DNA of 63,907 nucleotides, counting the filler, from Pirum gemmata (Eukaryota): NCBI GenBank assembly GCA_002812295.1. It is 9 parts of 9 records of this genome, joined end to end, with 100 filler letters (N's around TTAATTAATTAA, not from the genome) between each part and the next. Parts side by side here need not be neighbours in the genome. Positions count along the whole stretch, not along the records: positions 43,689 to 50,755 come from PDIN01000181.1; 8 more parts are not named here. One strand, 5' to 3'. This document shows, piece by piece, positions 1-50,755 of the stretch (position 1 is its first letter; each line of letters starts with the position of its first letter). A program made the translations under genes and the position numbers. The notes below the pieces were generated by a model. The model had not been told where the DNA came from. It saw nothing but the letters and a program-made list of their open reading frames with translations, and searched no databases.

Positions 1-550
1 ACAACAACAACAACAACAACAACAACAACACTTAGAACAACAAGAACAAGAACAAGAACAACAACAACCACAGCAGCAACCACAGCAGCAACCACAGCAG
101 CAACCACAGCAGCAACCACAACCACAACCACAACCAACCCAGCCAAGCCAAACACCACAAATACCACAGCCACCACAATCTCAATCACAGCTTCAGCAAC
201 TACCACAAGCACCACAAACACAAACACAACTACAACAGCAGCAAATGCAGCAAATGCAGCAAATGCAGCAATTTCAGATGCAATCACATCTACAACTTCA
301 ACAGCAGTCACAAGATCAACAACAGCAACAATTATTGCACATGCACATGCATCCGTCAATGCAAGCTATTTCACAAACACAATTACATCAAGTTCCAGGA
401 CAATCCCATTTGCCACCTCACCAACAACATGAGCAAATGCTTCTTCAGCAATTACAGCTACAACAGTTGCAAATGCAACTTCAACAGCCGCAAGCACAGA
501 CACAGACACAGACACAGACACAGACACAGACACAGCAACAACAACAACAA

Positions 551-594
<44 letters not shown>

Positions 595-3500
595 ACAACA
601 ACAGCAGCAACAGCAACAGCTACCACCGCAAGCACAGCAGCAACAACATCTTCAAAATCCTTTGCATCAGCCGCAAATGGGTTTTCCTATGTGGGGCCAA
701 ATTTCCCAAAATCCTATGGGCAATCGGGCCAATGTAGAGAGCCAACAAGAGAAGAATATGGGTTCTAAGCAAGCGAATATGTTTCTCCCTCCCCAAGGTT
801 ATTGTAGCTACAACTTTTTGATATCATGTCTGTTTTTATTACTACTATTGTAGTTGTATGACCATATGGCAATAACTACAACTATACCTATAGCTATTAC
901 CATTTGGGTATTTCGATTACCATTTCATAATTACGATCACGATCAACACCAACATTCATCAACATCTAGTTTCATCCCTATTACTGCTATGGCTATGGCT
1001 ATGACTATTACCATTATCGCCATTTATTGCTGTTATTATTGCTATTTATTACTGTTACTGTTACTATTTATTGCTGTTATCATTCATTACTGATGTTGAT
1101 GTTATTTTTACTGTTATCTTACCTTATATTCCATCAAGTATTTTTAAATTTAATATTTTTACCACTTACTATTGCATTGTTACTATTTTTAATGAATCAC
1201 AATTGTCATAATCATTATCATTACCATTATCATTACCATTACTACAACCAGTACCATTGCACACCATTACTCTCACGGACATCACCACCGTAATACTTCA
1301 GACACTATTTGATTAACAAATAAACGTTACTCTTTACTAGACTATTCCTTTCCTATCATTGATTAATTTTATCATTTAATTCCAATTTCTATTACTATTT
1401 TAATCATTATACTATCAAACACGGGCACGGGCACAGGTTAGATTTTAATACTATCAAATGCTATTGTTATTACTGCTGCTAATAAGTATAATGTTGTGGT
1501 ATATTCAGTTTTGGGATGGTTATCGGTTATATATTGAAATGGTTCTGTTTTCCTCGTCCTATTCTCTAATACTAATTTATACTCCATAGGTAACGAGGTG
1601 GATTCCAATGTTATGTTCAGTAACAATCCAGTTACTGAAATGATCAAACAGCAAGAATACGAAATACGCATGTTACAGATGGGGCTTCAAGACATATCTT
1701 ACAAGGATATGACTCTAAAATCTAGATTAGGAACAGTGCACCCAGAAGAGCAAGCTATGCTGATCGGAAAAGTGTCCGAGTTACAATTTCATTATCAACT
1801 CAAAGATGGGCAAATGCAAATACGCGTGCATACTCTTCATCAATTACAACAGCTACAGCAACACGTACCGCTGGAAATGCAGGCCCAACTACTACCACAG
1901 ATACAAGATCAGCTACAACAACAATTGACAAATGTTCAACAAGTATTAATTCAGCAACATGAAATGTTTCTTAAGCAGAATGGATTTCCCAGTGTAAACA
2001 TGAACTTTGATCCTCATCCCAATGACAGCGCAGGCATGTCAACGAAACAACAAAGTTTTAACAATCAACCAATTATATCATCAGATAAATATATTACCCA
2101 TTCACACCTACATCCTCAACATGTACAGCCTCAAGCCGAAATTCAACCTCAGGCTCACTCAGACTTAACGCCTGAAGCACAGCAACATCAATATCAACAA
2201 CCACAACAACCACAACAACCACAACAACCACAACAACCACATCAACTCCATACTGAACAACTCCAACAGCTTCAGCCACCACAACCACAACCACCACAGC
2301 AACAACATCTGCAATACCAACCACCACAAGCACAAGCACAAGTACAAGCACAAGCACACGTACAAGCACAAGCACAAGCACAAGCACAAGCACAAGCAAA
2401 AGCACAAGCACAAGCACAAGCACAAGCACAAGCACAAGCACAAGCACAATCGGAAGAACAGCCAATTAAAGCGCAACAAAACCGCTCTGGACAAGGGAAT
2501 CAAGAAGAAAAGGCTAGTCAAGAACAAAGAAAACTGAAAGAGCTACAAAAAATAGAAAAAGAAATAAAAAAACAGCGAAAAGATGCCGAGAAGCAAGTGC
2601 AAGAAAAAAAGGATAGTATGGAAAAAGAAACAGAAAATCAACGGAAAGAGCAAGAAGCGTTGAAGCTTGAACAACAAAGTGAAAAACGAAAGGAGAAAGA
2701 TTCTAAAGAGAAAAGGCGGAAAAAAGATCAAAGGGAAAAGGAAAAAGAACAAGAAGAAAAAGGAAAACAACAGCCAAAGCAGTCTTTAGTTAAATCAGAT
2801 TTATCTGACCAACAAGACGAAAACGTTACAATGAGTGCTACACCAGCTTCTGTTGCTCCGTGGTCTGCTCAAAAGCCAAAATTGGAGAAAAAGCCTTCTT
2901 TATTGGAAATTGAACAGAATGAACAAACAAAGAAGAAAATGGAAAACCAGAAAAAAAAAGAACGTGGACAGCAACAAGGAAAAGAGATGGGAACTGGCGC
3001 ATGGGGAACTCGCCAGGTTTCGGTTTCTGGCGATGCGCCTTTAAGTTTAGGTGAAATCCAAAAGGCAGAAGAGGCTAGAAAAGGTATTTTTTTTTTTATT
3101 TTTTTTTTATTTGTGATTCAAGAAGTATATCAAAATATTATGAAAGTTTTAAATTTGTGTTAATATAATATTTAGAGGTTCTAGAAATTGTAGTTTTTTA
3201 AGCAGTTAGTATTGGGATTTTGGTTTAGGGGGTTTGCGGGATTGGGTCCTAGGTATATTGGGGCTTTATGATTTTGTGTGGGTTTTTTTTTGTGAAACTA
3301 AAAGCTGTGTATTTTATGTTGTTTGAGTTTCATTGCTTCGGTTTAAACTGCATTTATCGTTTTGTGGTTTTGTGGTTTTGGGGATGGGGGAATTGATGGG
3401 TTGATGGGGGTTAAGGGTTTGATTGAGGATTTGTTGTGGGGTGGGTTTGAGATTTGAAATAATAGAGATCAGAAGGCAAGGAGGTAAGGAAGTTTAGAGT

Positions 3501-6500
3501 TTGAATTTGACTCGGGACTGGGTCAAGTGGGTGAGAGATATAGAGAAAGTTGGGAGTATTTGTTTAAAGGGGCGTTACTAATAGATATTTATCATTTTGA
3601 AATCATGAAGCTCAAATGGAAGTTGAAAAAAAGAAGTTAAATGCCCAACAAATGGATTTGGAATTTGCTGAAGATCGTAATTGGTCTGCCCAAGCCATGA
3701 AGCTAACTGGTAGCTCAATGGCATCGGTTCTTGAAACCGAAGAAAAGAGAAGACAGGCCAAGTTACAACGTGAGGAACAGGTTTATATTTTTATGGTTAT
3801 TTTAACGTGTGATTTCGTCTTGTTCTTGTTCTTATTTTTATTCTTATTCTTATTCTTGTTCTTATTCTTGTTCTTATTCTTGTTCTTATTCTTGTTCTTA
3901 TTCTTGTTCTTGTTCTTGTTCTTATTCTTATTCTTATTCTTATTCTTATTCTTGTTCTTGTTCTTGTTCTCAGCTTTTTTTCAATTTTAACACTTTTCTT
4001 CGAACTCCGTCATTAGTTGAGACAACAGCGTGTCGCTGAGCAAACGAAACTTTTAGAACAGCAGCGGCTTCTAGAGGAGAAACAAAAGGAGTTAGCTACT
4101 GCTGGTTGGGGTAAAGCTAAGACCCCCACGGTAATTACGCGTTTCCTGTGTCCTATATTATCTGTGTTTTTTGTTGTGCTTAAGTCCGACTAGCGTTTTA
4201 TTGTTGCGTTTTTCAATTTTTCTTCTGTATGTTTTGAGTTAATCAATTTTAATTTCTTTTCCTTTAAAATAGCATGTGCCCGTCGTTCCAATTGTTACTC
4301 AGGAGAGCAAGAAAATACAAAGCAAAATTAAATCTAGCACCAATAAACAGATTCCGAAAAAGGTGATTGCTGGTGACAACTAGGGTTAAGGGTAGGGTTA
4401 GGGGTTAGGGGTTAGGGGTTAAGTGATTATAGGGATTAGGGTTATAGGGGTTATAGGGGTTATAAGGGTTATAGGAGTTATAGGAGTTATATAGGAGTTA
4501 TAGGAGTTATTTTTAGGGGTCATAGGGGTTATAGGGGTTATTGTGGTTAGGGGTTATAGGGGGGTATACTGGTGTATAGGGGGTATAGGAGTTAGGGGTT
4601 AGGAGTTAAGAGGAGTTAGGAGACAAAGGAGTTAGGAGTTAGGAGTTAGGAGTTAGAAGTTAGGAGTTAGAAGTTAGGAGTTAGGAGTTAGGAGGTAGGA
4701 GTAAAGTTAGAAGTTAGGAGTAGGTGTTCGGTGTTAGGGGTTAGGTCTTAATCAATCGCGCTTATTTTATTACTTATACCGATATCCCCAGACTACAAAT
4801 ACTAAAACATCTACTGCACTTCATCATCAAATTTTCTGTCATATTTAAATTCGAACCCTATACCCCCCCCTTTTTATTTATTTATTTTATTTTTTATTTT
4901 TTATAGACTCCGATAAAAGATGAATGGGAAGAGGATATAAAGTAAGTATTTGGTTTTATTTGTAATAAATAAATCAATAAAATATTAGATGAATGAAATA
5001 GGTGAATAAGTAAGGGAAGATGAAATAGAAAGCATGTTATAAGACTATGTATTAAGTTTCTGTTTAATTATAAATAATGTTAAATATGAAAAAACACATA
5101 AAATAACAAGCTTCCCAAAAAAATAGTAATAATAGTGAAATGAACACTTCCAAGGAAAATGTACATAAACAGAACATGGATGAAAAGAAAACCATGAAAT
5201 ATTAGTGAGAAAAGATAGTGCTAATATTGGCAAAAAGCTAAGTTAATAGTAAGAGTTATTTGTATTTTGTTACTGGTTGTGAAAAAAACAATAATCTTTC
5301 CCCTGATTATAAATTTTGTTTTATTTTTTCACTTTTAAAAATAGATTTGAAGATGGAGTAATGACCAAAGCAATGACCAAAGCTGAAAAAAGAAAAATGA
5401 AGAAAGCTCAACAACAAAAAGAGGAAGATGGTAATTTTGTAGTGTTATTAGTATTTTCAATTAAGTTTTTTATGTTCATCAACTCATCAATGCAGTCGGA
5501 TTGACTTTTCTATTATCATTATTATCGGCACCTTTCTTATACTATATTATATATATATATATATATTTGGAAATTTGTTATAACCAAAAATAAATAAGTG
5601 TTTGTTATTAGTGTAAAATTTATCGAATGCTTGTTTTGTCGTGTGACGAATATTATCGACCTGTTATTAGTATATATATATATCATGTTTTTGGTATTTT
5701 ATTATTTTTTCGGTGGTGTAAGTTAGGGTTGCCGGCATATTTGTGTAGTCGTTGTTTTTGTTGTGAATATGCATTGTTGCTTATATGTATAGTATTATTT
5801 CATGAATGTAGAAGCCGAGGTTGATGTTCTTGCACACCCTTCTGGAAGTAGAACCAGTACCGTTCCGAGCACACACAGTCAATCTGAACTGTCTACAGAA
5901 TCGCAAGCGGAAATACAATTTAGGAATTGGTGTGAACAACGTTTATCTCAACTTGTACAACAACAAGGTGTTGATATACCTACTATTTTTACTTTTCTTA
6001 ACGGGTTAACGAGCGCCACGCTTGTAAAAGAATCAATAAATGATATTCTAGGAAATGATGCTAAAGCGTTTGCTTTCGGGAAAGAATTCTGTCAAAGAAA
6101 AACTCAGGTTTACATTGCATTTGACCTCTTTACTCCACTCTCACATTTTATTCTTTTCTACACATACACAAGGACTAAACTTTTTTATCCCCCCCCCCCA
6201 CCCCCTTTTTTTTTTTTTTTGTTTTTTTTTTTTTTTTTTCGGGTCTGTTAAAGTTTCCCTTTTCTTTTCTAACTTGTCCTTGTCTCTTTTCTCTGATAAC
6301 TGTAGGTTCATGAAGCCAAAAAGCAACATCATGAAATGTTAAAGCGCAAACAACAAGGACAAGTATTACAGCAACAACGTCAACAACAACAAGTAGCACA
6401 GCAGCAGGCGCTATTATTAAAACAACAGCAACAACAGCAACTGTTAATAGAGCAGCAGCATAAAGAGCGCATGCAAAAACAACAACTGTTACAACAGCAA

Positions 6501-6815
6501 CAATATAAAGCTCAACAGAAAGCACGTGCACAGAAAAGGCCTTTAAGTCAGTCGAATTCTATGGTTAACCCACCAAGTCCGAATACATGGCCTAGTTTGA
6601 CACAGACGTACTCGAATGAAAAGGGGAAAAAAATAGTTGAGGAACCCACAAATCCAGCTTCTCAAACGCAAGGAGGTAAGCTGGAACGAGTTGCTTCTTC
6701 TGGTGGTAAAAAAGGCAAGAAGGGCCGACGTCAGAAAGTAGTTGATCCGTCATTGCTTGGATTTAATTCAGGTGACCTGGGCGAAGTTCAGTCAGTAGCG
6801 GATGCTTTTAATTAG
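1..6815 (+). CDS. GIGYF-family (GRB10-interacting GYF / Smy2-like) protein, 5'-truncated; exons <1-797, 1590-3083, 3611-3780, 4017-4130, 4273-4362, 4907-4941, 5345-5430, 5812-6107, 6306-6815
   Basis: All eight introns are GT-AG and keep the frame when spliced by hand. The product has Q-rich and charged coiled-coil tracts, SLLEIEQ/SLGEIQ motifs, the C-terminal domain FRNWCEQRL...VDIPTIFTFL...ILGNDAKAFAFGKEFCQRK and the tail KKGKK...VDPSLLGF, all typical of GIGYF1/2 C-termini. The GYF domain is not in the window. Confidence 0.8.
4381..4745 (+). repeat. Degenerate telomere-like repeats inside an intron
   Basis: TTAGGG/TTAGGGG grading into TTATAGGGG and TTAGGAG units within intron 4363-4906. Confidence 0.8.
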
Positions 6816-10753: not shown

Positions 10754-11593
10754 CTACAATGATGGTAAACTATGTTGTTTGTGTAAGTGTAAAAAAGTTT
10801 TCTCTTCATAAAATGGTTCAGGATTATTTGTATAAGAAGAAATCGTATTGTTAAGGTTGCATAGCCTAATTATAGAGTCAATTGCTCTTTTTTCCCCTGT
10901 AGATGGTGAAGAAGAAAATGGAAGGGAATTTGTATTGGTAAACTGTTTCGCATTTAGGCTGGTCAACTTATGTTCATTAAATAAACTAGGTATATTTAAG
11001 GCGGGCATGGTGTCTAAATTTGTTCTAAAATCTGTATTAGAATAATTGGTGTCTAAAGTTGGTCTAAAATCTGTATTGGAATTTGATCTAAGATTATTAT
11101 TAAATTCTATGGAGTCAGTTTCTATATTGGTAGTTGATGTGCTAAATGGAAGGAAATTTGTATTGGTAAACTTTTTAGCATTTAGGCTGGTCAACTTATG
11201 TTCATCAAATAAATTAGACATGCTTAAGGTACACATGGTGCCAAAATTTGTTCTAAAATCTGTATTTGAATTTGATCTAAGATTATTATTAAATTCTATT
11301 ATATTAATATCGTCTATACTCGTGTGTATGATATTATTAAAGTTGTCAAAAAAACGGTTAATTTTAAAGGAAGGTGTAGCTTTTTGTGGTTCAGATACGG
11401 TTTTTAATTTTTTAAAAACATTAATATCCTTTGCTTTTTGAACTGTGCCTTTTTTATTAATTGCTTGTTCTCCGTGTTGAAAACAATATTGATAATACAC
11501 GAGTTTCTGACAACGTGTCCCAAATTTGGTAAAACCGGCGCATCTGTGTCGGGTTTGTTTCAAATCGTGAGCATCACTAATTACAAAAGACAT
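10754..11593 (-). CDS. Hypothetical protein with N-terminal C-x-G-x-T-K-x-G-x-R-C-x8-C-x2-H zinc-finger-like motif and an internal duplication
   Basis: Intronless 279-aa ATG ORF; RCAGFTKFGTRCQKLVYYQYCFQH; IEFNNNLRSNSNTDFR and EHKLTSLNAKxFTNTN each occur twice. Confidence 0.6.
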   Translation of the reverse strand: MSFVISDAHDLKQTRHRCAGFTKFGTRCQKLVYYQYCFQHGEQAINKKGTVQKAKDINVFKKLKTVSEPQKATPSFKINRFFDNFNNIIHTSIDDINIIEFNNNLRSNSNTDFRTNFGTMCTLSMSNLFDEHKLTSLNAKKFTNTNFLPFSTSTTNIETDSIEFNNNLRSNSNTDFRPTLDTNYSNTDFRTNLDTMPALNIPSLFNEHKLTSLNAKQFTNTNSLPFSSSPSTGEKRAIDSIIRLCNLNNTISSYTNNPEPFYEEKTFLHLHKQHSLPSL

Positions 11594-43062: not shown

Positions 43063-43811
43063 TTAATAGTAGTAGTAGTAGTACTAGTACTAGCACTAGT
43101 ACTACTACTAGTAGTAGTAGCAGTTGATAATATACTATAGTACTATATGGAATATTTTCTATATTTATAAACAAGAAAGAGAACTGGGAAATATATCTTT
43201 TTCAAAAAATAAATACATAAATAAATATTAATAAATACATATTATATATATAAATACATAAATACATAAATACATAAATACATAAATACATAAATACATA
43301 AATACATAAATACATATGTCAGTTCATAAGCATCAACGAAGCCATAATCACCTCAATAACAAATTGACGATGTGAACCATATTTTTTTAAAAAACCGCCT
43401 TAGTTTTATAGTCTTAGACTCCTATGAGGCCGAAGACTTGTCTGCATACACAAAACATGTTGCAAACTCAAAGTGCTTCCTGGTAGCTTCCACACTAGAC
43501 TATGTATAATAATAAATATCCAAAACAAATAAATAACGTCTACGATATTACGATATTATATATAGATATATTTAATAATAATAATAATNNNNNNNNNNNN
43601 NNNNNNNNNNNNNNNNNNNNNNNNNNNNNNNNTTAATTAATTAANNNNNNNNNNNNNNNNNNNNNNNNNNNNNNNNNNNNNNNNNNNNATTTTTATTTAT
43701 AATAATTTTTATTTATAATAATATTATATTTATAATAATTTTATAATAATTTTATAATAAATTTATAATAATTTTATAATAAATTTATAATAATTTTTAT
43801 TTATAATTAAT

Positions 43812-44888
43812 TTATTTGTTATTAGTAACAAAAGTAGTAACCAAAGTTATCAATACTCCCATTATAAATGCCGAGGTAGAAACAACAATAATCCACACAG
43901 AATATAGCGGACGATTAAAAAAATAGTATAATATAATAGCCAGCATTGAAATAATTCCTATATTGAGACCTACCAGGATAGATGGTGTATCTTGTAATGT
44001 TTTACTAATTATAGAAAGTGAATATCGATGAGGAGTAAAAGACAGTGTATTAAGTTTATTGAAAGTGTACTTTGGTTGAAATTGCTCAGTAGAATCTAAT
44101 GCCCTTCCACCCACAAAATTTAAGTACGAGTGTTCTAATGGAACTTCGTCTACTTTGGTAGGTAAAAGTATTAATGGGTAATTCTTCATTTTATAACCTT
44201 TACCGGTAGGTTCACTTCCAAATAAGAATAGCCTTAAATTCTTTCCGACTTTGTGATAAAAGGCATGAGAGCCTTTAGCGACATAAAATATAGGTCTTTC
44301 GTTAGGTCTGTCTATTTCTACCTCGCTCCAGGGAATCCAACCATTGTCCCCGTGACTACTTAGAGCCACTTTGAAGGGGACATAATTGTTCAAATCTTCT
44401 TTACTTTGGTCGATTTTAAATCGAATGGTCACCGCTTCGGCATCGTAATAATGAGGTGCTAACGTTCCATTATAACTATAATTATACACATAACTAACAT
44501 CTAAAAATTCTCCTTCGACACTGTGGTCTACTTTGATAATAAACACATACCCAGGTGGTTCTAACGGGAATTCAGATTTGTTAACTTGGTTTCGTTTTAT
44601 AAACCATTCACATCCATACTTTAGCCTTTCGGGTTTGTCTTTCAAGTTTAATCGAAAATTCAAATCCTCCTTTCCTGCTTTACCTCCACTGATATCTAAT
44701 GCAGGGTCAACGCTACCTTGGATTATATCGTTATAATCATTAATTTGATTTAAGATTGGCTGGTTGTTTTTATATAATTTACTTTGAAGAATATAATCAC
44801 GTATATCTACTGGAAAGTATTTTTCATCTTTATGAAAATATAATATAGGTTGATAAATATAGATTAACTCGGAAAAGTTCTTGTTCAT
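43812..44888 (-). CDS. Vps62-related protein with two C-terminal TM helices
   Basis: PILYFHKDEKYFPVDI, YNYSYNG...HYYDAEAVTIRF, SSHG, RPIFYVAKGSHAFY motifs; ATG at 44888 preferred over the GTG of the ORF track. Confidence 0.75.
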   Translation of the reverse strand: MNKNFSELIYIYQPILYFHKDEKYFPVDIRDYILQSKLYKNNQPILNQINDYNDIIQGSVDPALDISGGKAGKEDLNFRLNLKDKPERLKYGCEWFIKRNQVNKSEFPLEPPGYVFIIKVDHSVEGEFLDVSYVYNYSYNGTLAPHYYDAEAVTIRFKIDQSKEDLNNYVPFKVALSSHGDNGWIPWSEVEIDRPNERPIFYVAKGSHAFYHKVGKNLRLFLFGSEPTGKGYKMKNYPLILLPTKVDEVPLEHSYLNFVGGRALDSTEQFQPKYTFNKLNTLSFTPHRYSLSIISKTLQDTPSILVGLNIGIISMLAIILYYFFNRPLYSVWIIVVSTSAFIMGVLITLVTTFVTNNK

Positions 44889-44925
44889 TTTTATTAAATA
44901 AATTTTATTTTTTTTATTAATATTA

Positions 44926-45471
44926 TTATCGCGTTTTAAACAGTTTACGAGCACATTTAGGTACAGTCAATTTGGGAGCAAATTTTTTGTGATGTCGGCG
45001 CTTTATTCTCTTAAATGCTTCTTTGTTATTGAGTAAACTTTTAATTGGTGTTTTAAGTTGGTTATATGTATATTTTTTAAAAGGTGCGTATGAAACTTGT
45101 CCTTGATTATTTTGTCCTTGATTATTTTGTCCTTGATTATTTTGTCCTTGATTATTTTGTCCTTGATTATTTTGTCCTTGATTATTTTGTCCTTGTACTT
45201 GTCCTTCTTGTTGATTTTGTCCTTGATTATTTTGTCCTTGTACTTGTCCTTCTTGTTGATTTTGATTTTGTACTTGTCCTTGTTGATTTTCTTGTTTTTT
45301 TTGTTTTTTTTCTTGTTCTTGTTCTTGTCGAAAGTAAAATGTATTAATTGGGGTCAAGTTTTGGTACTCTTTTTTTTCATGTTGTTCGAATAAAAATTTA
45401 ATTGTTTTATCTTCATATTCATTAGTAAAGAAAGAAGAAGGTTCGAGAACAGAGTCCAAATTAATATTCAT
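44926..45471 (-). CDS. Hypothetical protein with QGQNN repeats and basic C-terminus
   Basis: ATG at 45471 in AAAAATG context; 15-bp repeat units; packed between neighbours on the same strand. Confidence 0.65.
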   Translation of the reverse strand: MNINLDSVLEPSSFFTNEYEDKTIKFLFEQHEKKEYQNLTPINTFYFRQEQEQEKKQKKQENQQGQVQNQNQQEGQVQGQNNQGQNQQEGQVQGQNNQGQNNQGQNNQGQNNQGQNNQGQNNQGQVSYAPFKKYTYNQLKTPIKSLLNNKEAFKRIKRRHHKKFAPKLTVPKCARKLFKTR

Positions 45472-45579
45472 TTTTCTTAATTTTTTTCTTAATTTTTTTC
45501 TTAATTTTTTTCTTAATTTTTTTTTTCTCAATTTTTTTTATTAATTTTTTTTTTTCTTAATTTTTCTTTCTTAAATACT

Positions 45580-46548
45580 TTAACGCCTAGTTGAAAAATA
45601 AAATACTACTATCACTGTAAAAATAAGACTCAATAGTAATATGTCGGCAGCGTTGTTTGTTGATTTTACCGGGTTTGTTGATTTTACCAGGTTTGTTGAT
45701 TTTACCGGATTTGTTGATTTTACCGGATTTGTTGATTTTACCGGATTTGTTGATTTTACCGAGTTTGTTGATTTTACCGAGTTTGTTGATTTTACCGAGG
45801 GATAATAATTATCTATGTAATCCTCGGAAAGGGGATCAACAACATTAAAATATGCATTAGAGTCCAATGATCTCTCCAACCAAAAGAGTGACGTGGCTAC
45901 ATTGGCCCACACACCATAAGTACCAAATCTAGCGCACCCTTTACCCCAACTAACTATTCCAATTAGAATATCCATTCTTGGATTTTCTATTTCAATTACC
46001 AAGGGTCCCCCACTATCACCGGAACAAGCATCTTTACCTTTTTTCCCAGCACAAATTTCCGTGACGGGATGAATGTCTCTAATAGAATCTTGACCATCAT
46101 CATTATTGGCCTCGGCACATGTTTCGTAACTCACTAAATTCAATTCGACTCGTTGTTGCATGTCAGGAATTTTTTCCATTCCTTCTTTTTGTCTTCCGAA
46201 GCCGTAGAGAGTACATGGTAAATGTTCTGGTAAATCTAAACAAGAATTTAATATTACTGTATTATTATTATCAATATTCCTGTCCAACCTGATCAAAGCC
46301 AAGTCATGATCATCACTAAAAGTATAACCAATAATTTCGGCATACTCGAACTCGTCCGGGTTGCTGAGTTTTAACCCACCCACTAAAACAAATAATTCAG
46401 ATGGGTCTGGGGTTTCCTTTTGCAAACAATGTTTAGCACTTAATATTACCGAGGGTGAGATAAGAACCCCCGAACAAAAATGAACCTTTTCATTTTTATA
46501 TTGTATCGAAACCATCCATTGCTTTACTTTATCTTGAATGGTGGACAT
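45580..46548 (-). CDS. Trypsin-like serine protease (S1A) with repeat stalk and C-terminal TM anchor
   Basis: CSGVLI...SAKHC (His), DLALIRL (Asp), DACSGDSGGP (Ser; Asp at S1 pocket), GIVSWGKGCA; about eight VKSTN(P/S/L) repeats; hydrophobic tail. Confidence 0.93.
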   Translation of the reverse strand: MSTIQDKVKQWMVSIQYKNEKVHFCSGVLISPSVILSAKHCLQKETPDPSELFVLVGGLKLSNPDEFEYAEIIGYTFSDDHDLALIRLDRNIDNNNTVILNSCLDLPEHLPCTLYGFGRQKEGMEKIPDMQQRVELNLVSYETCAEANNDDGQDSIRDIHPVTEICAGKKGKDACSGDSGGPLVIEIENPRMDILIGIVSWGKGCARFGTYGVWANVATSLFWLERSLDSNAYFNVVDPLSEDYIDNYYPSVKSTNSVKSTNSVKSTNPVKSTNPVKSTNPVKSTNLVKSTNPVKSTNNAADILLLSLIFTVIVVFYFSTRR

Positions 46549-46638
46549 ATTTTATATTTTATAGATAGTAAAAAAAAAATTTCAAATCAATAAAATATAA
46601 AATAAAATTCAATAAAATTCAATAAAATTCAATAAAAT

Positions 46639-46839
46639 TCAATAAAATTCAATAAAATAATTGGAATTTTTTAATTTTTTTCTTTGTCGAAATTGATGTT
46701 CGTTTACTAATTTGTACTTATGGTCATTGATGTCCAGGACATAATAATATTTTTGACCATTGTTATTGACTTCGGAATACCCGTTTTTCTCACCATTAAT
46801 ATTGGTATAGACACTTTTACTAGAAGAAAAATAATTCAT
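46639..46839 (-). CDS. Small hypothetical protein (66 aa)
   Basis: ATG in TAAATG context; fills the gap in a gene-dense contig. Confidence 0.5.
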   Translation of the reverse strand: MNYFSSSKSVYTNINGEKNGYSEVNNNGQKYYYVLDINDHKYKLVNEHQFRQRKKLKNSNYFIEFY

Positions 46840-46904
46840 TTATTTTTAAAAATAATTCATTTATTTTTAAAAAAATAAAATAATTAAAATAAAAAGAAAA
46901 AAAA

Positions 46905-48320
46905 ATGTTATGTATTCCAAAAAGTTTGTTGGGTTGGTGGAAAAAAAAACAGATTTTAAGGTTCCCTGTGGGGACGATTGAACAAAACAGGGTAGAGGAA
47001 AGATTAGTAGCACATCAAAATTGGTGTTTGGTTTTTGTACCTACACTTACTATTACTTATCTAGGCTATCTTGCTATCACCTATTATTATTTCTATGAAA
47101 ATAATTTGGAAACTTACCGTACTTTATTGGGTTTATTAGCATCCGCGACATTGGGGATCTGTACAGTGCTTTTTACCCTAATATTATTTTTACGACATGA
47201 GCAGGAAATATTAGCCCTACACTCCGGCTTTATTTTATTTTTTGGGTTTTTTAGTATATGTGTTTGCGTTGCCCGAATATTAACGGCGTGGGTTCCCGTG
47301 CCTTTGTCTGGTGATACTATTGGTTCTAAAATTTTGTTCTTTTGGTATACCTTTTTCCAATGTTTTTCTAATCAATGCTCTTTAATAGGATTGTTGGTTA
47401 TCCGACAACAAACATTCTATAGTGTATATACAAAAAATAAACTAACTAGTTCTTTTCTTATGGGAGTGCCATTATATTTATGCATATGTTTATTAATAGC
47501 TTTCAATTTTTTTATTTGTGGGCTTATTAACAATGGGTGTTCCTTGTTAGAAAGCTACATTACTTTTTATTGTATAATGGTAATATTAGGAACATTATTT
47601 GGGTATTATTTGTATTATACCTACCCAGCCAGTATTTGTTTCATACAATTTTGGCCAAATGTTAGAATGTTTATTTTACACAACATAGTACAAATAATCT
47701 TCTTTTTAATCATGATAACGGGTAACAAGTTAAGTGTACCCGTACTAGAGCAATTAGTAGGCATGTATTTTGTACTTTTTATCGTACTAGATACACTCTT
47801 TTGGCCTATAACCAAATGTGTGGCCCGTAAATTCTATCAAGCAAATATATGGCCCGAAATGGACGTTATTGGTCTTAGTTATTCAGCCATTGGTAATAAG
47901 CAAGAATTAATCATACATTTAAGCAGTGATATTTTGTATACGAACTTTTACATGTTTTCTCGCACCTTATTTTGTGAAGAAGGAATCCAATTTCTAAGAC
48001 TCATCCAAAATTGGAAAAATAATAAAGTGGTTCACTACAAAGCCGGTCCTTCCATTTCGGAACCGCCTTTAACAGTGACGTATATTGTTAAGGATTATAT
48101 CGAAAACGACGGTGAATTTTGCTTGAACATTAGTGATAAAACTAGGAATAATACGTTACATTTGTATCAAACTTTAGAACATCCAACTTATGCTATTTTT
48201 GAAGAAGCTTTTAACAATGTTATGAATGATACGTTATTAGGTGTTTTTGAGTCTTATAAAAATAGTGATTTTTATCATAAAACTGTCAATTTTATAAAAA
48301 AGGAAAAAATACTTTTATAG
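46905..48320 (+). CDS. Multi-pass membrane protein with C-terminal RGS domain (7TM-RGS type)
   Basis: About eight hydrophobic segments, then FYMFSRTLFCEEGIQFL...IVKDYIENDGEFCLNISDKTR...IFEEAFNNVM, the RGS box pattern. Confidence 0.85.
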   Translation: MLCIPKSLLGWWKKKQILRFPVGTIEQNRVEERLVAHQNWCLVFVPTLTITYLGYLAITYYYFYENNLETYRTLLGLLASATLGICTVLFTLILFLRHEQEILALHSGFILFFGFFSICVCVARILTAWVPVPLSGDTIGSKILFFWYTFFQCFSNQCSLIGLLVIRQQTFYSVYTKNKLTSSFLMGVPLYLCICLLIAFNFFICGLINNGCSLLESYITFYCIMVILGTLFGYYLYYTYPASICFIQFWPNVRMFILHNIVQIIFFLIMITGNKLSVPVLEQLVGMYFVLFIVLDTLFWPITKCVARKFYQANIWPEMDVIGLSYSAIGNKQELIIHLSSDILYTNFYMFSRTLFCEEGIQFLRLIQNWKNNKVVHYKAGPSISEPPLTVTYIVKDYIENDGEFCLNISDKTRNNTLHLYQTLEHPTYAIFEEAFNNVMNDTLLGVFESYKNSDFYHKTVNFIKKEKILL

Positions 48321-49928
48321 TACGGGAATGGCATGATCAGGTAAAGTTCTGGTTTGTCTAGTCGCACCCTCTTGGTAAGTACCATACGTGGTTAGTTTTG
48401 GTTTTAATACTACTTGTGGATCGTACATGGTAAATGGTTGTTGATTATAAAATCCCCCTTTAGCACTAGATACGGGTTCTTGATAGGCAGTTTTTTGTGT
48501 TATGGCCGAGAATGGTGTTTGCTCAGATGTCGGAGCATGGATAGGGGCAAGGTACGATCCTCCGGTTAAATTTGTTAACCCTTGTGTTGTTGTATATTGT
48601 GATGGGTGGTAGTTTTGTATCGATTTAACTTGAGATCCGTACATGTTTTTACTATCTAACAATGAATCATCGTACCCATGTGTACGGGCAGTATAAGAAA
48701 TATCCGGGTTAAATTTGGGCCGAGAACGTTGAAAGGTATGTTGATTATGGTAATTAGGGTTATGGGCTAACATAGATCCTTCGGCATACTTATTATGTGC
48801 ACTGGTTTTAGAATAATTGGCCAAATCCTTTTGTAATCGAGTTTTTCGCACAACATGATTGATTTGATTAGCATATTCTTCATTATTAGTAATAACGTGT
48901 GCTTTTCCCGAATTTGCCGACGTTTGCGTAGGATTAGTCACCACACACCGTTGAACGTCGTCGGATGCTTCTCTGTTGGTGGAGGCCGAATAGACATAAG
49001 GAGCTTTTATTTGACTACCCAAATTTATTACCTTGGACGGGACCGTGGTATGAACCGCCTTGGAACTATGAACTATGTTTTGTGATGGGTTTTCGTTTTT
49101 ATACTTGAGAGGTTTGGTCTTAGTTTTTATTTGTTTGGCATTAATTACTTTATCATTCGACGTTAAAAAATTACTCAATTTGTGTTCGGGAATAGTGTTG
49201 GTACCATTCCCCCATTCCTTCTGACGTTGTGTAAGTACATTGCGAGCTTTTTTCCGATTTGTTTGTTGTTGGTTAACTAGTTTAAAGATGTTGGAAGGCA
49301 GATTTTCCGCTATATTGTTCTTTTTACCCCGGGTAATATTCCCGGCATTGGCTGCAACGTTAATCTTATTGGCTTGGATAGTTGTTAATTCAAGATGTTT
49401 ATCCGGCTTAACCGCAACTCCATTACTATTCTTTTTTATTTGGGTCCCTACCAAAAAAGCCCGGGTTGGTTGTAAATTGTAAATCTTGCTCATATTTACG
49501 TCAGTTGGTCCTAATTTGATTTTGTGTTGGTAGTCGGGTCGCGATACATTTCCTTCACACGCAGTCACTGGTCGAGTTTGCCGTGACAACGGTAATGTGT
49601 CCGTAGGTTTTTGAACTGTCATACGAAATGCACCATTATCCATGATTTTCCGTGGATTAGAAGCTTCTGATCCTCCACCATTAACATTGGAATAAGAAAC
49701 CTTTACCATGGGATTAATCCCGTGCGCAAATTTACTAATGGCCTCATTGATTCGGTCACCGTTGCTTTCAATCATCTCGTTCTTGTAATGGTCTACTTTT
49801 GGTTTAGCACTCGTGTAATATGACTTGGGTGGATCCTTCATAATAGCTAGGTTGGTTCCAAACCCTTCCGTACTAGGGAAAATTGGTCCCTTACCTTTAT
49901 CAATTATAGCACTAAGAGAAAAACTCAT
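48315..49928 (-). CDS. Conserved hypothetical protein resembling an iridovirus/ascovirus/marseillevirus family
   Basis: N-terminal motifs PSTEGFGTNLAIMKDPPKS, GDRINEAISKFAHGINPMVKVSYSN, GAFR...LPLSRQ match my recollection of that family (GTNxxIxRDPPKS, DRIxEAIxxYARGVNPMVxVSY, GAFRPP...LPLSR); ATG at 49928. Confidence 0.65.
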   Translation of the reverse strand: MSFSLSAIIDKGKGPIFPSTEGFGTNLAIMKDPPKSYYTSAKPKVDHYKNEMIESNGDRINEAISKFAHGINPMVKVSYSNVNGGGSEASNPRKIMDNGAFRMTVQKPTDTLPLSRQTRPVTACEGNVSRPDYQHKIKLGPTDVNMSKIYNLQPTRAFLVGTQIKKNSNGVAVKPDKHLELTTIQANKINVAANAGNITRGKKNNIAENLPSNIFKLVNQQQTNRKKARNVLTQRQKEWGNGTNTIPEHKLSNFLTSNDKVINAKQIKTKTKPLKYKNENPSQNIVHSSKAVHTTVPSKVINLGSQIKAPYVYSASTNREASDDVQRCVVTNPTQTSANSGKAHVITNNEEYANQINHVVRKTRLQKDLANYSKTSAHNKYAEGSMLAHNPNYHNQHTFQRSRPKFNPDISYTARTHGYDDSLLDSKNMYGSQVKSIQNYHPSQYTTTQGLTNLTGGSYLAPIHAPTSEQTPFSAITQKTAYQEPVSSAKGGFYNQQPFTMYDPQVVLKPKLTTYGTYQEGATRQTRTLPDHAIPVL

Positions 49929-49989
49929 TTTTATTTGTGACAACTTTTTTTTTTATCAATTTAAAAAAAAGTATACGTTTTCTAAAACA

Positions 49990-50127
49990 ATGAGTTTATT
50001 TGTAAACAAAAAACAAAATATACGTAAAAAATTACTAAATTATTTACAGGAACCAGTACCATTGGAACCAATGTCCTTGAACTCGCACATGAATAAAAAT
50101 GTATCCAACCATCATTATTCTAATCAT

Positions 50128-50184
<57 letters not shown>

Positions 50185-50755
50185 GACCAAATTCTATCGA
50201 ACTTAAACAAACCTAGGCAGAACAATGTTTCGTTTACTCCTTCTAATGGGAAATTCCAAATAAATAAAGCGTTTGGTATTAGTAAACTTGACTCTAATGA
50301 AAATTTAGATCCTGACCTCCCTACTAATGAAAGCTTTTCTACAAAGACAACTCATAATCCAATTGACTCTGATTTTTTTGTAAAATCTGAAGATAAAGAA
50401 ACATCGGAAGTTGATAACGATTATTACGATAACGATACATCGGAAGTTGATGACGATTATTACGCTAGAGTCAAGTTATTAAATAGTTTAATAGGTAACA
50501 AGGGTAACAAGGGTAACAAGGGTAACAAGGATAACAAGGATAACAAGGATAACAAGGATAACAAGGATAACAAGGATAACAAGGATAACAAGGATAACAA
50601 GGATAACAAGGATAATGATATCAAGGATAACAAGGAGAACAAGGATAATGATAACAAGGATGTTAATAATGTTTATAGTGATAAGGATAGTGATAGTGAT
50701 GATTATAAGGATAAGGATGATTATAAGGATGATTATAAGGATGATTATAAGGATG
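49990..50755 (+). CDS. Hypothetical N/D/K-rich low-complexity protein, 3'-truncated
   Basis: ATG at 49990, 61 bp from the divergent neighbour; (NKD)n repeats; runs into the linker. Confidence 0.6.

What the first reader, a model, noticed from the sequence alone, without database searches (positions are those of the whole stretch)
46905..48320. Intact 7TM-RGS gene on a giant-virus-like contig: candidate viral regulator of host G-protein signalling
Seen: about eight TM segments plus an RGS box, intronless, overlapping at its 3' end with the virus-like ORF. Known: 7TM-RGS proteins (AtRGS1 architecture) are receptor-GAPs for G-alpha in plants and several protists. Seen: the RGS4-N128 equivalent is kept (CLNIS) but EEN is EEG and the DSYxRF motif reads GVFESY. 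Inference: a captured host gene acting as an altered GAP or a G-alpha-binding decoy. I do not know of a characterised viral 7TM-RGS, but cannot search.
Basis: partly seen in the sequence, partly recalled or inferred. Interest (0 to 1): 0.85.

Follow-up and report, generated by a model that had tools for sequence, protein, structure and literature searches.

The report
Host G-protein brake in giant-virus DNA
An intact gene for a protein with eight predicted membrane helices and a G-protein off-switch (RGS) domain sits tail-to-tail with a giant-virus-type gene, and was likely captured by a giant virus from its own host, a single-celled relative of animals, probably to damp that host's G-protein signalling.

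Summary
The gene is real: an unbroken 471-codon ORF with a Pfam RGS hit and a confident model with eight membrane helices, a GPCR-like seven-helix bundle plus one extra. Its only sequence relatives are TM-RGS proteins of ichthyosporeans (16 of 17 hits named so), and it nests with Pirum/Abeoforma copies. The window is a string of about 7-kb pieces; this piece is 90% coding against 0-37% for the other eight, and the overlapping neighbour belongs to a giant-virus family (54 loci; 8 of 8 classified genomes Pimascovirales PM_01). A second, 89%-identical partial copy abuts the same viral gene and differs mostly at silent sites (12 silent, 6 replacing). Best reading: a host receptor-GAP captured by a Pimascovirales-like virus. 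No viral core marker or host junction lies on the piece. The 'altered' motif is mostly a family trait, so a decoy is not indicated. RGS proteins are already annotated in Catovirus, Solumvirus, Terrestrivirus and Yasminevirus, which lowers novelty; I found no paper describing them.

The parts
46905..48320 (+). TM-RGS gene, 471 aa, no intron needed; eight predicted membrane helices and a C-terminal RGS domain; lacks the 22-404-residue tail that 12 of 13 cellular relatives carry after the RGS domain (the 13th is an incomplete model)
47025..47093 (+). extra first membrane helix (about residues 41-63), also present in the 3 close cellular relatives that have an N-terminus
47097..47837 (+). seven-helix bundle (residues 65-311) with a GPCR-like fold; best matches class C receptors, Z 18.2, rmsd 3.2-3.5, 7-10% identity; class A receptors follow within about 1 Z
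47937..48281 (+). RGS domain (Pfam match, residues 345-459); keeps Glu359, Asn408, Arg414; has Gly360, Asp442, Gly446, Ser450 where RGS4 has Asn88, Leu159, Asp163, Arg167 (RGS4 numbering recalled; mapping by my alignment)
48315..49928 (-). 537-aa gene of a giant-virus family without a Pfam name; conserved N-terminal 140-200 residues; overlaps the RGS gene by 6 bases
45580..46548 (-). trypsin-family protease with a repeat stalk and a C-terminal hydrophobic anchor, transcribed away from the RGS gene across 356 bases
44926..45471 (-). 181-aa Gln/Asn-repeat ORF, no family
43812..44888 (-). Vps62-like protein, 358 aa, with C-terminal hydrophobic segments; a Vps62 group of similar length exists among giant-virus gene groups (GVOG00283), but the family is also cellular
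49990..50755 (+). repeat-rich ORF cut off by the end of the piece, no family
43689..50755 (.). the whole 7,067-base piece between two assembly linkers: six ORFs, 90% coding, CpG observed/expected 0.98, both ends in low-complexity repeats
48036..48345 (+). stretch matched by a second, diverged copy in run X1 (RGS domain end plus 25 bases of the viral gene's end), with unrelated sequence on both sides

Best explanation
This is an intact ichthyosporean-type membrane RGS gene that was likely captured from the Pirum/Abeoforma host lineage by a Pimascovirales-like giant virus, and its product would sit in a host membrane and likely speed GTP hydrolysis on the host's G-alpha, damping G-protein signalling during infection. 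Shown: the ORF, the RGS match, kinship to ichthyosporean TM-RGS proteins, a giant-virus-type neighbour, a gene-dense piece. Predicted: eight membrane helices with N-terminus and RGS domain both cytosolic. Inferred: that the piece is viral DNA (about 0.75), that the direction of transfer was host to virus, that the DNA is now endogenous or persistently carried, and that the RGS domain is an active GAP for the same G-alpha as the cellular copy (about 0.6 if viral). Loss of the C-terminal tail may remove host control of the receptor and leave a constant brake; this step is speculation.
For: RGS match above cut-off; model and folds. 16 of 17 hits among 1.84 billion representatives are named ichthyosporean proteins, one identical over residues 270-443 and named Pirum gemmata, one unnamed. 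In a 14-row tree of residues 215-460 the protein groups with 3 Pirum/Abeoforma proteins at 100/99; holding the 7 nearest cellular proteins together without it is rejected, p-AU 0.021. Neighbour: 54 IMG/VR loci; 8 of 11 genome names looked up were in the table of PMC8575486 and all 8 are Pimascovirales PM_01; Atlas look-alikes are viral clusters. Piece 90% coding against 0-37%, CpG 0.98 against 0.55-0.79; gaps between genes -6 to 356 bases. One contig of run X1 carries the last 49 bases of the RGS gene and the whole laid part of the viral gene without mismatch. A second copy has the same tail-to-tail pair and 12 silent against 6 replacing differences over about 51 codons, pN/pS 0.12, p 1e-5 (differences scored by hand, site counts), with Asn408 kept. 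Glu359 and Asn408 are shared with 13 of 13 cellular relatives; Asp411, Asp442, Gly446 match the Pirum cellular copy. Iridovirus/Marseillevirus-type inserts are reported in the ichthyosporean Sphaeroforma (PMC5294986). RGS domains of Naegleria 7TM-RGS proteins are GAPs (PMC9283941).
Against: No viral core marker among the six ORFs and only 1 of 5 neighbours has clearly viral relatives; scans with the Vps62-like and trypsin genes found no viral locus. No relative of the TM-RGS in IMG/VR or JGI metagenomes nor within 10 kb of the 54 viral loci. Long single-frame genes also occur in host-like pieces of the window (350, 408, 573 aa), and codon usage does not separate the gene from them. Ichthyosporeans have 22-119 RGS genes (PMC3971589), so one could lie beside viral DNA by chance. 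ViralRecall gave no reliable hit in the Pirum genome (PMC11244446). The window protein is a long branch and the AU test was set after seeing the tree. Gly360 replaces an Asn kept in the 7 nearest relatives, and D163G is listed as a predicted loss-of-function variant of human RGS4 (PMC11065749). The selection signal is for the two copies' history, not for present function.
Confidence: 0.47

Rival explanations
1. Virus-borne as above, but a poor or dead GAP that binds host G-alpha or pairs with the host receptor and acts as a decoy or dominant negative.
For: Gly360 in place of an Asn kept in 7 of 7 nearest relatives; the RGS part is only 19-26% identical to the seven nearest relatives while the membrane parts are 32-47%; tail lost.
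Against: Glu359, Asn408, Arg414 are kept; the other departures are family-wide (0 of 12 relatives have the Asp or Arg); other cellular members also lack this Asn (4 of 13, one with Gly); the RGS domain shows purifying selection between copies, which fits binding as well as catalysis and so does not decide.
Confidence: 0.25
2. A fast-evolving host paralogue or retrocopy that merely lies next to a remnant of viral DNA; it works as an ordinary host receptor-GAP or is decaying.
For: All named relatives are cellular; large RGS families in ichthyosporeans; two more diverged, partial Pirum gene models are closest to this protein (P0008, P0015); no core marker on the piece; host-like pieces hold long single-frame genes.
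Against: The whole piece, on both sides of the gene, is gene-dense and CpG-undepleted unlike the other eight; stop codons overlap with the viral gene; an 89%-identical copy keeps the same RGS/viral-gene junction, so the two genes have travelled together.
Confidence: 0.2
3. The RGS gene and the viral gene were joined by an assembly error at a short shared repeat.
For: Run X1 has a 79-base node shared by two copies inside the RGS domain, and the contig for the upstream part of the gene was not shown.
Against: Both exits from the node lead into the end of the viral gene, so RGS sequence abuts it on either path; contig depths pair the diverged entry (257) with the diverged exit (245), not with the window's exit (493), a hint only; the upstream neighbours are gene-dense too.
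Confidence: 0.05

Closest known systems
Ichthyosporean TM-RGS proteins (e.g. Sphaeroforma arctica SARC_10961, Abeoforma whisleri Awhi_evm1s6940, Pirum gemmata Pgem_evm1s3225 and evm1s18519); 7TM-RGS in ichthyosporeans noted in PMC3971589
   Same: Homologous over the membrane part and the RGS domain (26-43% identity for the closest hits); same extra first helix; same non-canonical last RGS motif.
   Different: Long branch; no C-terminal tail; Asn to Gly at residue 360; lies in a gene-dense piece overlapping a giant-virus-type gene.
7TM-RGS receptor-GAPs: Arabidopsis AtRGS1 (PMC3386157) and Naegleria fowleri 7TM-RGS (PMC9283941)
   Same: Helical membrane bundle followed by an RGS domain; likely the same logic of switching G-alpha off at the membrane.
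   Different: Eight helices; no plant or Naegleria protein was among the 17 hits, so likeness is of architecture; no GAP or ligand data here.
RGS-domain proteins annotated in giant viruses: Catovirus CTV1 (A0A1V0SA96, A0A1V0S925, A0A1V0S9D7), Solumvirus (A0A3G5AGB3, A0A3G5AGQ3), Terrestrivirus (A0A3G4ZL92), Yasminevirus (A0A5K0U9R1)
   Same: Viral genes with an RGS fold; three are 434-532 aa and one aligns over 459 columns, so some may be TM-RGS too (their topology not checked).
   Different: 12-21% identity and Foldseek E above 0.001: no sign of close kinship, so likely separate captures; here the donor lineage can be named and appears to be the host itself.
Giant-virus inserts in ichthyosporeans: Iridoviridae/Marseilleviridae-type islands in Sphaeroforma (PMC5294986); Medusavirus-related inserts in Amoebidium with co-opted host KDM4-like genes (PMC11244446)
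   Same: Gene-dense, intron-poor viral DNA in an ichthyosporean assembly; captured host regulator.
   Different: Different host genus, where an earlier scan found no reliable viral hit; captured gene is a G-protein regulator; integration not shown here.

Membership tests
RGS domain (PF00615) | profile match above the curated cut-off | tested here: met
   35.7 bits against 23.9, E 1.2e-8
RGS domain (PF00615) | RGS helical fold | tested here: met
   best PDB match RGS16, TM-score 0.83 on the target, rmsd 3.7, though E only 7e-3; family profile hits RGS16/RGS2/RGS4 at E 1e-13
Canonical RGS GAP | Asn equivalent to RGS4 N128, critical for GAP activity (PMC11065749), and Glu equivalent to E87 (recalled) | tested here: met
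   Asn408 and Glu359, shared with 13 of 13 relatives
Canonical RGS GAP | animal R4-type contacts N88, D163, R167 | tested here: not met
   Gly360, Gly446, Ser450; D163 and R167 also absent from 12 of 12 cellular relatives; not filed as an R4-type RGS
Canonical RGS GAP | accelerates GTP hydrolysis on G-alpha | not testable with these tools
   needs an assay; no G-alpha sequence was available for a co-fold
7TM-RGS (AtRGS1 architecture) | seven-helix membrane bundle N-terminal to an RGS domain | tested here: met
   residues 65-311 match GPCR bundles, Z 18, with one extra helix in front
7TM-RGS (AtRGS1 architecture) | sequence kinship of the membrane part to plant RGS1 | tested here: inconclusive
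   no plant protein among 17 hits; no direct comparison made
Ichthyosporean TM-RGS family | homology over both parts and placement inside the family tree | tested here: met
   tree holds no non-ichthyosporean named outgroup
Nucleocytoviricota DNA | core marker genes (capsid, DNA polymerase, ATPase, VLTF3, D5) | tested here: inconclusive
   0 of 6 ORFs match one, but the piece is only 7 kb
Nucleocytoviricota DNA | virus-type gene family and dense, intron-poor coding | tested here: met
Pimascovirales PM_01 | placement by marker-gene phylogeny | not testable with these tools
   no marker on the piece; the 537-aa protein is a long branch with no supported home among 43 rows, so not filed under PM_01
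Giant endogenous viral element | junction with host chromosome | tested here: inconclusive
   both ends of the piece break in repeats; the short second copy has unrelated AT-rich and AAC-repeat flanks, a hint only

The most novel reading that the evidence does not exclude
An undescribed Pimascovirales-like giant virus of ichthyosporeans carries, and has kept under selection across several related genomes, a tail-less eight-helix receptor-GAP taken from its own host, and uses it to shut off host G-protein signalling; with the RGS genes annotated in klosneuviruses and Solumvirus this would be a repeatedly evolved, unstudied viral strategy that mirrors the activating GPCRs of herpes- and poxviruses, and here host G-alpha, cellular copy and viral copy can be tested side by side.
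Probability: 0.4. Interest if true: 0.72.

Novelty: new variant of a known kind. Interest (0 to 1): 0.52.

Why it matters
Animal viruses are known to pirate GPCRs that switch G proteins on (own knowledge; many such rows). A virus-borne receptor-GAP would be the opposite lever, and none is described in the papers I could search. This case has what database annotations lack: a named donor lineage that appears to be the host, a culturable organism, and a cellular copy for comparison. It also points to giant-virus DNA in a close relative of animals where an earlier scan reported none, related to a viral group whose hosts are barely known (PMC13691094; a first host, Opalozoa, in bioRxiv 10.64898/2026.10.11.758280).

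Tried and rejected
Word-index protein search with the full protein: no hit among 6670 candidates. IMG/VR scans with the TM-RGS, the 537-aa protein alone, the Vps62-like protein and the trypsin: no relative; these scans need exact peptides and miss distant kin. JGI metagenome scan with the TM-RGS alignment: none; with the Vps62-like pair: 6 weak loci at 24-49% over short or partial stretches, context not examined. A degenerate motif for canonical RGS domains in IMG/VR gave 8 loci, none an RGS, a weak test. The fold without alignment was unusable (pLDDT 41). No RNA holder was listed; nothing was laid from X2 or X3; neither says anything on expression. No whole genome is held, so core markers and host depth could not be sought. 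Codon usage did not tell viral from host genes. No kinship with the window's other multi-helix gene. No co-fold was run: no G-alpha sequence was among the session's sequences. The table of 8,863 giant-virus gene groups has no RGS consensus annotation, yet BFVD lists viral RGS proteins, so that blank shows only that they are scattered. Rejected: 'neighbours' outside 43689-50755, which are other pieces; the 88-base intron implied by public model P0001 (GT at 48233, AG at 48320, my reading), which would cut off the last RGS helix and is likely a predictor artefact, untested.

Full report
Observation. 46905-48320 is an unbroken 471-codon frame with Pfam RGS at residues 345-459 (E 1.2e-8, above cut-off). 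A model built on 16 sequences (pLDDT 80.8) shows eight long helices and then an RGS domain. Residues 65-311 align with GPCR seven-helix bundles (Z 18.2 for class C receptors, class A within about 1 Z); the RGS part matches RGS16 and RGS4. So the protein is a 7TM-RGS with one extra front helix, which the three close relatives with an N-terminus share. With eight helices both the basic N-terminus and the RGS domain would be cytosolic (inference). The exact full protein is not in the 15-billion collection; the public model P0001 covers only residues 270-443.

What the window is. Paired N runs around TTAATTAATTAA split it into nine pieces of 5.9-7.4 kb. Only 43689-50755 is the gene's neighbourhood. 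That piece has six ORFs of 150 aa or more covering 90% of it; the other eight pieces have 0-3 covering 0-37%, and lower CpG (0.55-0.79 against 0.98). A named Pirum gemmata gene model is identical to the ORF over 174 residues, so the organism is likely this ichthyosporean; its published genome is fragmented, AT-rich and from axenic culture (PMC5560861, passages), which makes an environmental contaminant less likely (inference).

Is the piece viral? The 537-aa neighbour, searched as an alignment with two relatives, found 54 IMG/VR loci, 21 of them with GVMAG names. I looked up 11 of the 21 in the supplement of PMC8575486 (rows seen); 8 were listed, all Pimascovirales PM_01. The patterns came from those two relatives, which may bias towards that group. 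Atlas look-alikes are viral clusters. The window's copy is a long branch with no supported place among 43 rows, so 'Pimascovirales-like' is as far as it goes. Vps62 and trypsin families occur among giant-virus gene groups but also in cells, and scans found no viral relative of these copies. No core marker is on the piece. Iridovirus/Marseillevirus-type islands are reported in Sphaeroforma (PMC5294986, passages); a ViralRecall run on Pirum gave no reliable hit (PMC11244446, passages; its table S5 not seen).

Linkage and a second copy. In DNA run X1, perhaps the window's own source, one contig holds the last 49 bases of the RGS gene and the laid part of the viral gene without mismatch. A second RGS copy differs at 24 of 217 bases; of the 18 differences listed away from its ends, 12 are silent and 6 replace a residue (scored by hand), against 29 silent and 124 replacing sites (pN/pS 0.12, p 1e-5). 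Asn408 is kept through a silent change. Its likely continuation keeps both stop codons, separated by a 6-base insertion, and 25 bases of the viral gene, then runs into an AAC repeat; upstream it turns to unrelated sequence with an in-frame stop. It thus looks like a 310-base fragment of a sister element that carried the same gene pair, possibly inserted in host DNA (inference; the joining of the two contigs rests on depth, a hint only). A diverged second copy of the viral gene is also present, and two further partial Pirum models are closest to this protein.

Origin. Of 17 hits, 16 are named proteins of Pirum, Abeoforma, Sphaeroforma or Creolimax and one is unnamed. In a tree of residues 215-460 (14 rows; P0001, P0005, P0008, P0015 left out as identical or not covering the region; columns absent from the window protein dropped) it groups with the three Pirum/Abeoforma rows at 100/99. 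Forcing it out of the seven nearest cellular proteins is rejected at p-AU 0.021 (test named after seeing the tree, long branch, no named outside outgroup). Whether it lies inside or beside the three is unresolved. Ichthyosporeans are known to have 7TM-RGS and 22-119 RGS genes (PMC3971589, passages; supplementary figure on TM-RGS not seen). A host-to-virus transfer within this lineage is the simplest reading.

Mechanism. Using RGS4 numbering (recalled; mapped through; conserved stretches and the role of N128 from PMC11065749, passages): E87, N128 and R134 are kept. D163 and R167 are not, but 0 of 12 cellular relatives have them, and the Pirum cellular copy shares Asp411, Asp442 and Gly446, suggesting the same G-alpha partner. 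The one private change is Asn to Gly at 360. RGS domains of Naegleria 7TM-RGS proteins are GAPs (PMC9283941, passages), and AtRGS1 holds plant G-alpha off (PMC3386157, passages). I therefore favour an active, membrane-bound GAP that damps host signalling (0.47 overall) over a decoy (0.25), a host paralogue beside viral DNA (0.2) or a misjoin (0.05). Nothing here shows expression, binding or catalysis.

Novelty. BFVD lists RGS-annotated proteins in Catovirus (3), Solumvirus (2), Terrestrivirus and Yasminevirus among the top 50 rows, at 12-21% identity and E above 0.001; some are long enough to be TM-RGS. So a viral RGS is not new to databases. Searches for a description found none: two papers, listing only, neither on this by title and abstract start; none; the Solumvirus paper does not mention RGS in its main text (PMC6243002, word search), nor does PMC12716839 discuss viral RGS (passages). 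The library lacks most subscription journals. No relative was found in viral or metagenome collections.

Verdict. Real gene, new variant of a known kind, interest 0.52: a likely host-to-virus capture with a traceable donor, held back by the lack of a core viral marker, of any functional evidence, and by existing annotations of viral RGS proteins.

Noticed in passing
window 1-63907: The window is nine unrelated pieces joined by N44-TTAATTAATTAA-N44 linkers; any finding that treats genes across a linker as neighbours is an artefact.
   Followed up: yes
window 45580-46548 (-): Trypsin-family protease with His, Asp and Ser motifs visible, no obvious signal peptide, a KSTNPV repeat stalk and a C-terminal hydrophobic anchor; with the Vps62-like gene and the TM-RGS it makes three membrane proteins in one virus-like block.
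   Followed up: partly
window 48315-49928 (-); loci L001-L054: Conserved giant-virus gene family with no Pfam match in 12 members scanned; Atlas clusters partly carry DUF5899 (20-45% of members). A diverged second copy is in run X1.
   Followed up: partly
window 10754-11593 (-): 279-aa ORF with an N-terminal Cys-Cys-Cys-His motif that I recall from giant-virus proteins; no Pfam or NCBIfam match; on another piece.
   Followed up: no
window 60847-61899 (-): Single-frame 350-aa protein that looks like a seven-helix receptor by eye, no good family match, unrelated to the TM-RGS.
   Followed up: partly
window 55750-56976 (+): Single-frame TALE-type homeobox gene (Homeobox_KN, E 5e-17).
   Followed up: no
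window 36225-37946 (-): 573-aa single-frame ORF without a family match.
   Followed up: no
window 245-6815 (+): Gln-rich exon-like frames that resemble a spliced GIGYF-type gene (resemblance recalled, not tested).
   Followed up: no
BFVD rows: Solumvirus, a relative of pithoviruses, has both a class C GPCR-like protein (A0A3G5AGU0) and RGS proteins annotated; a survey of G-protein-pathway genes in giant viruses seems to be missing from the papers searched.
   Followed up: no
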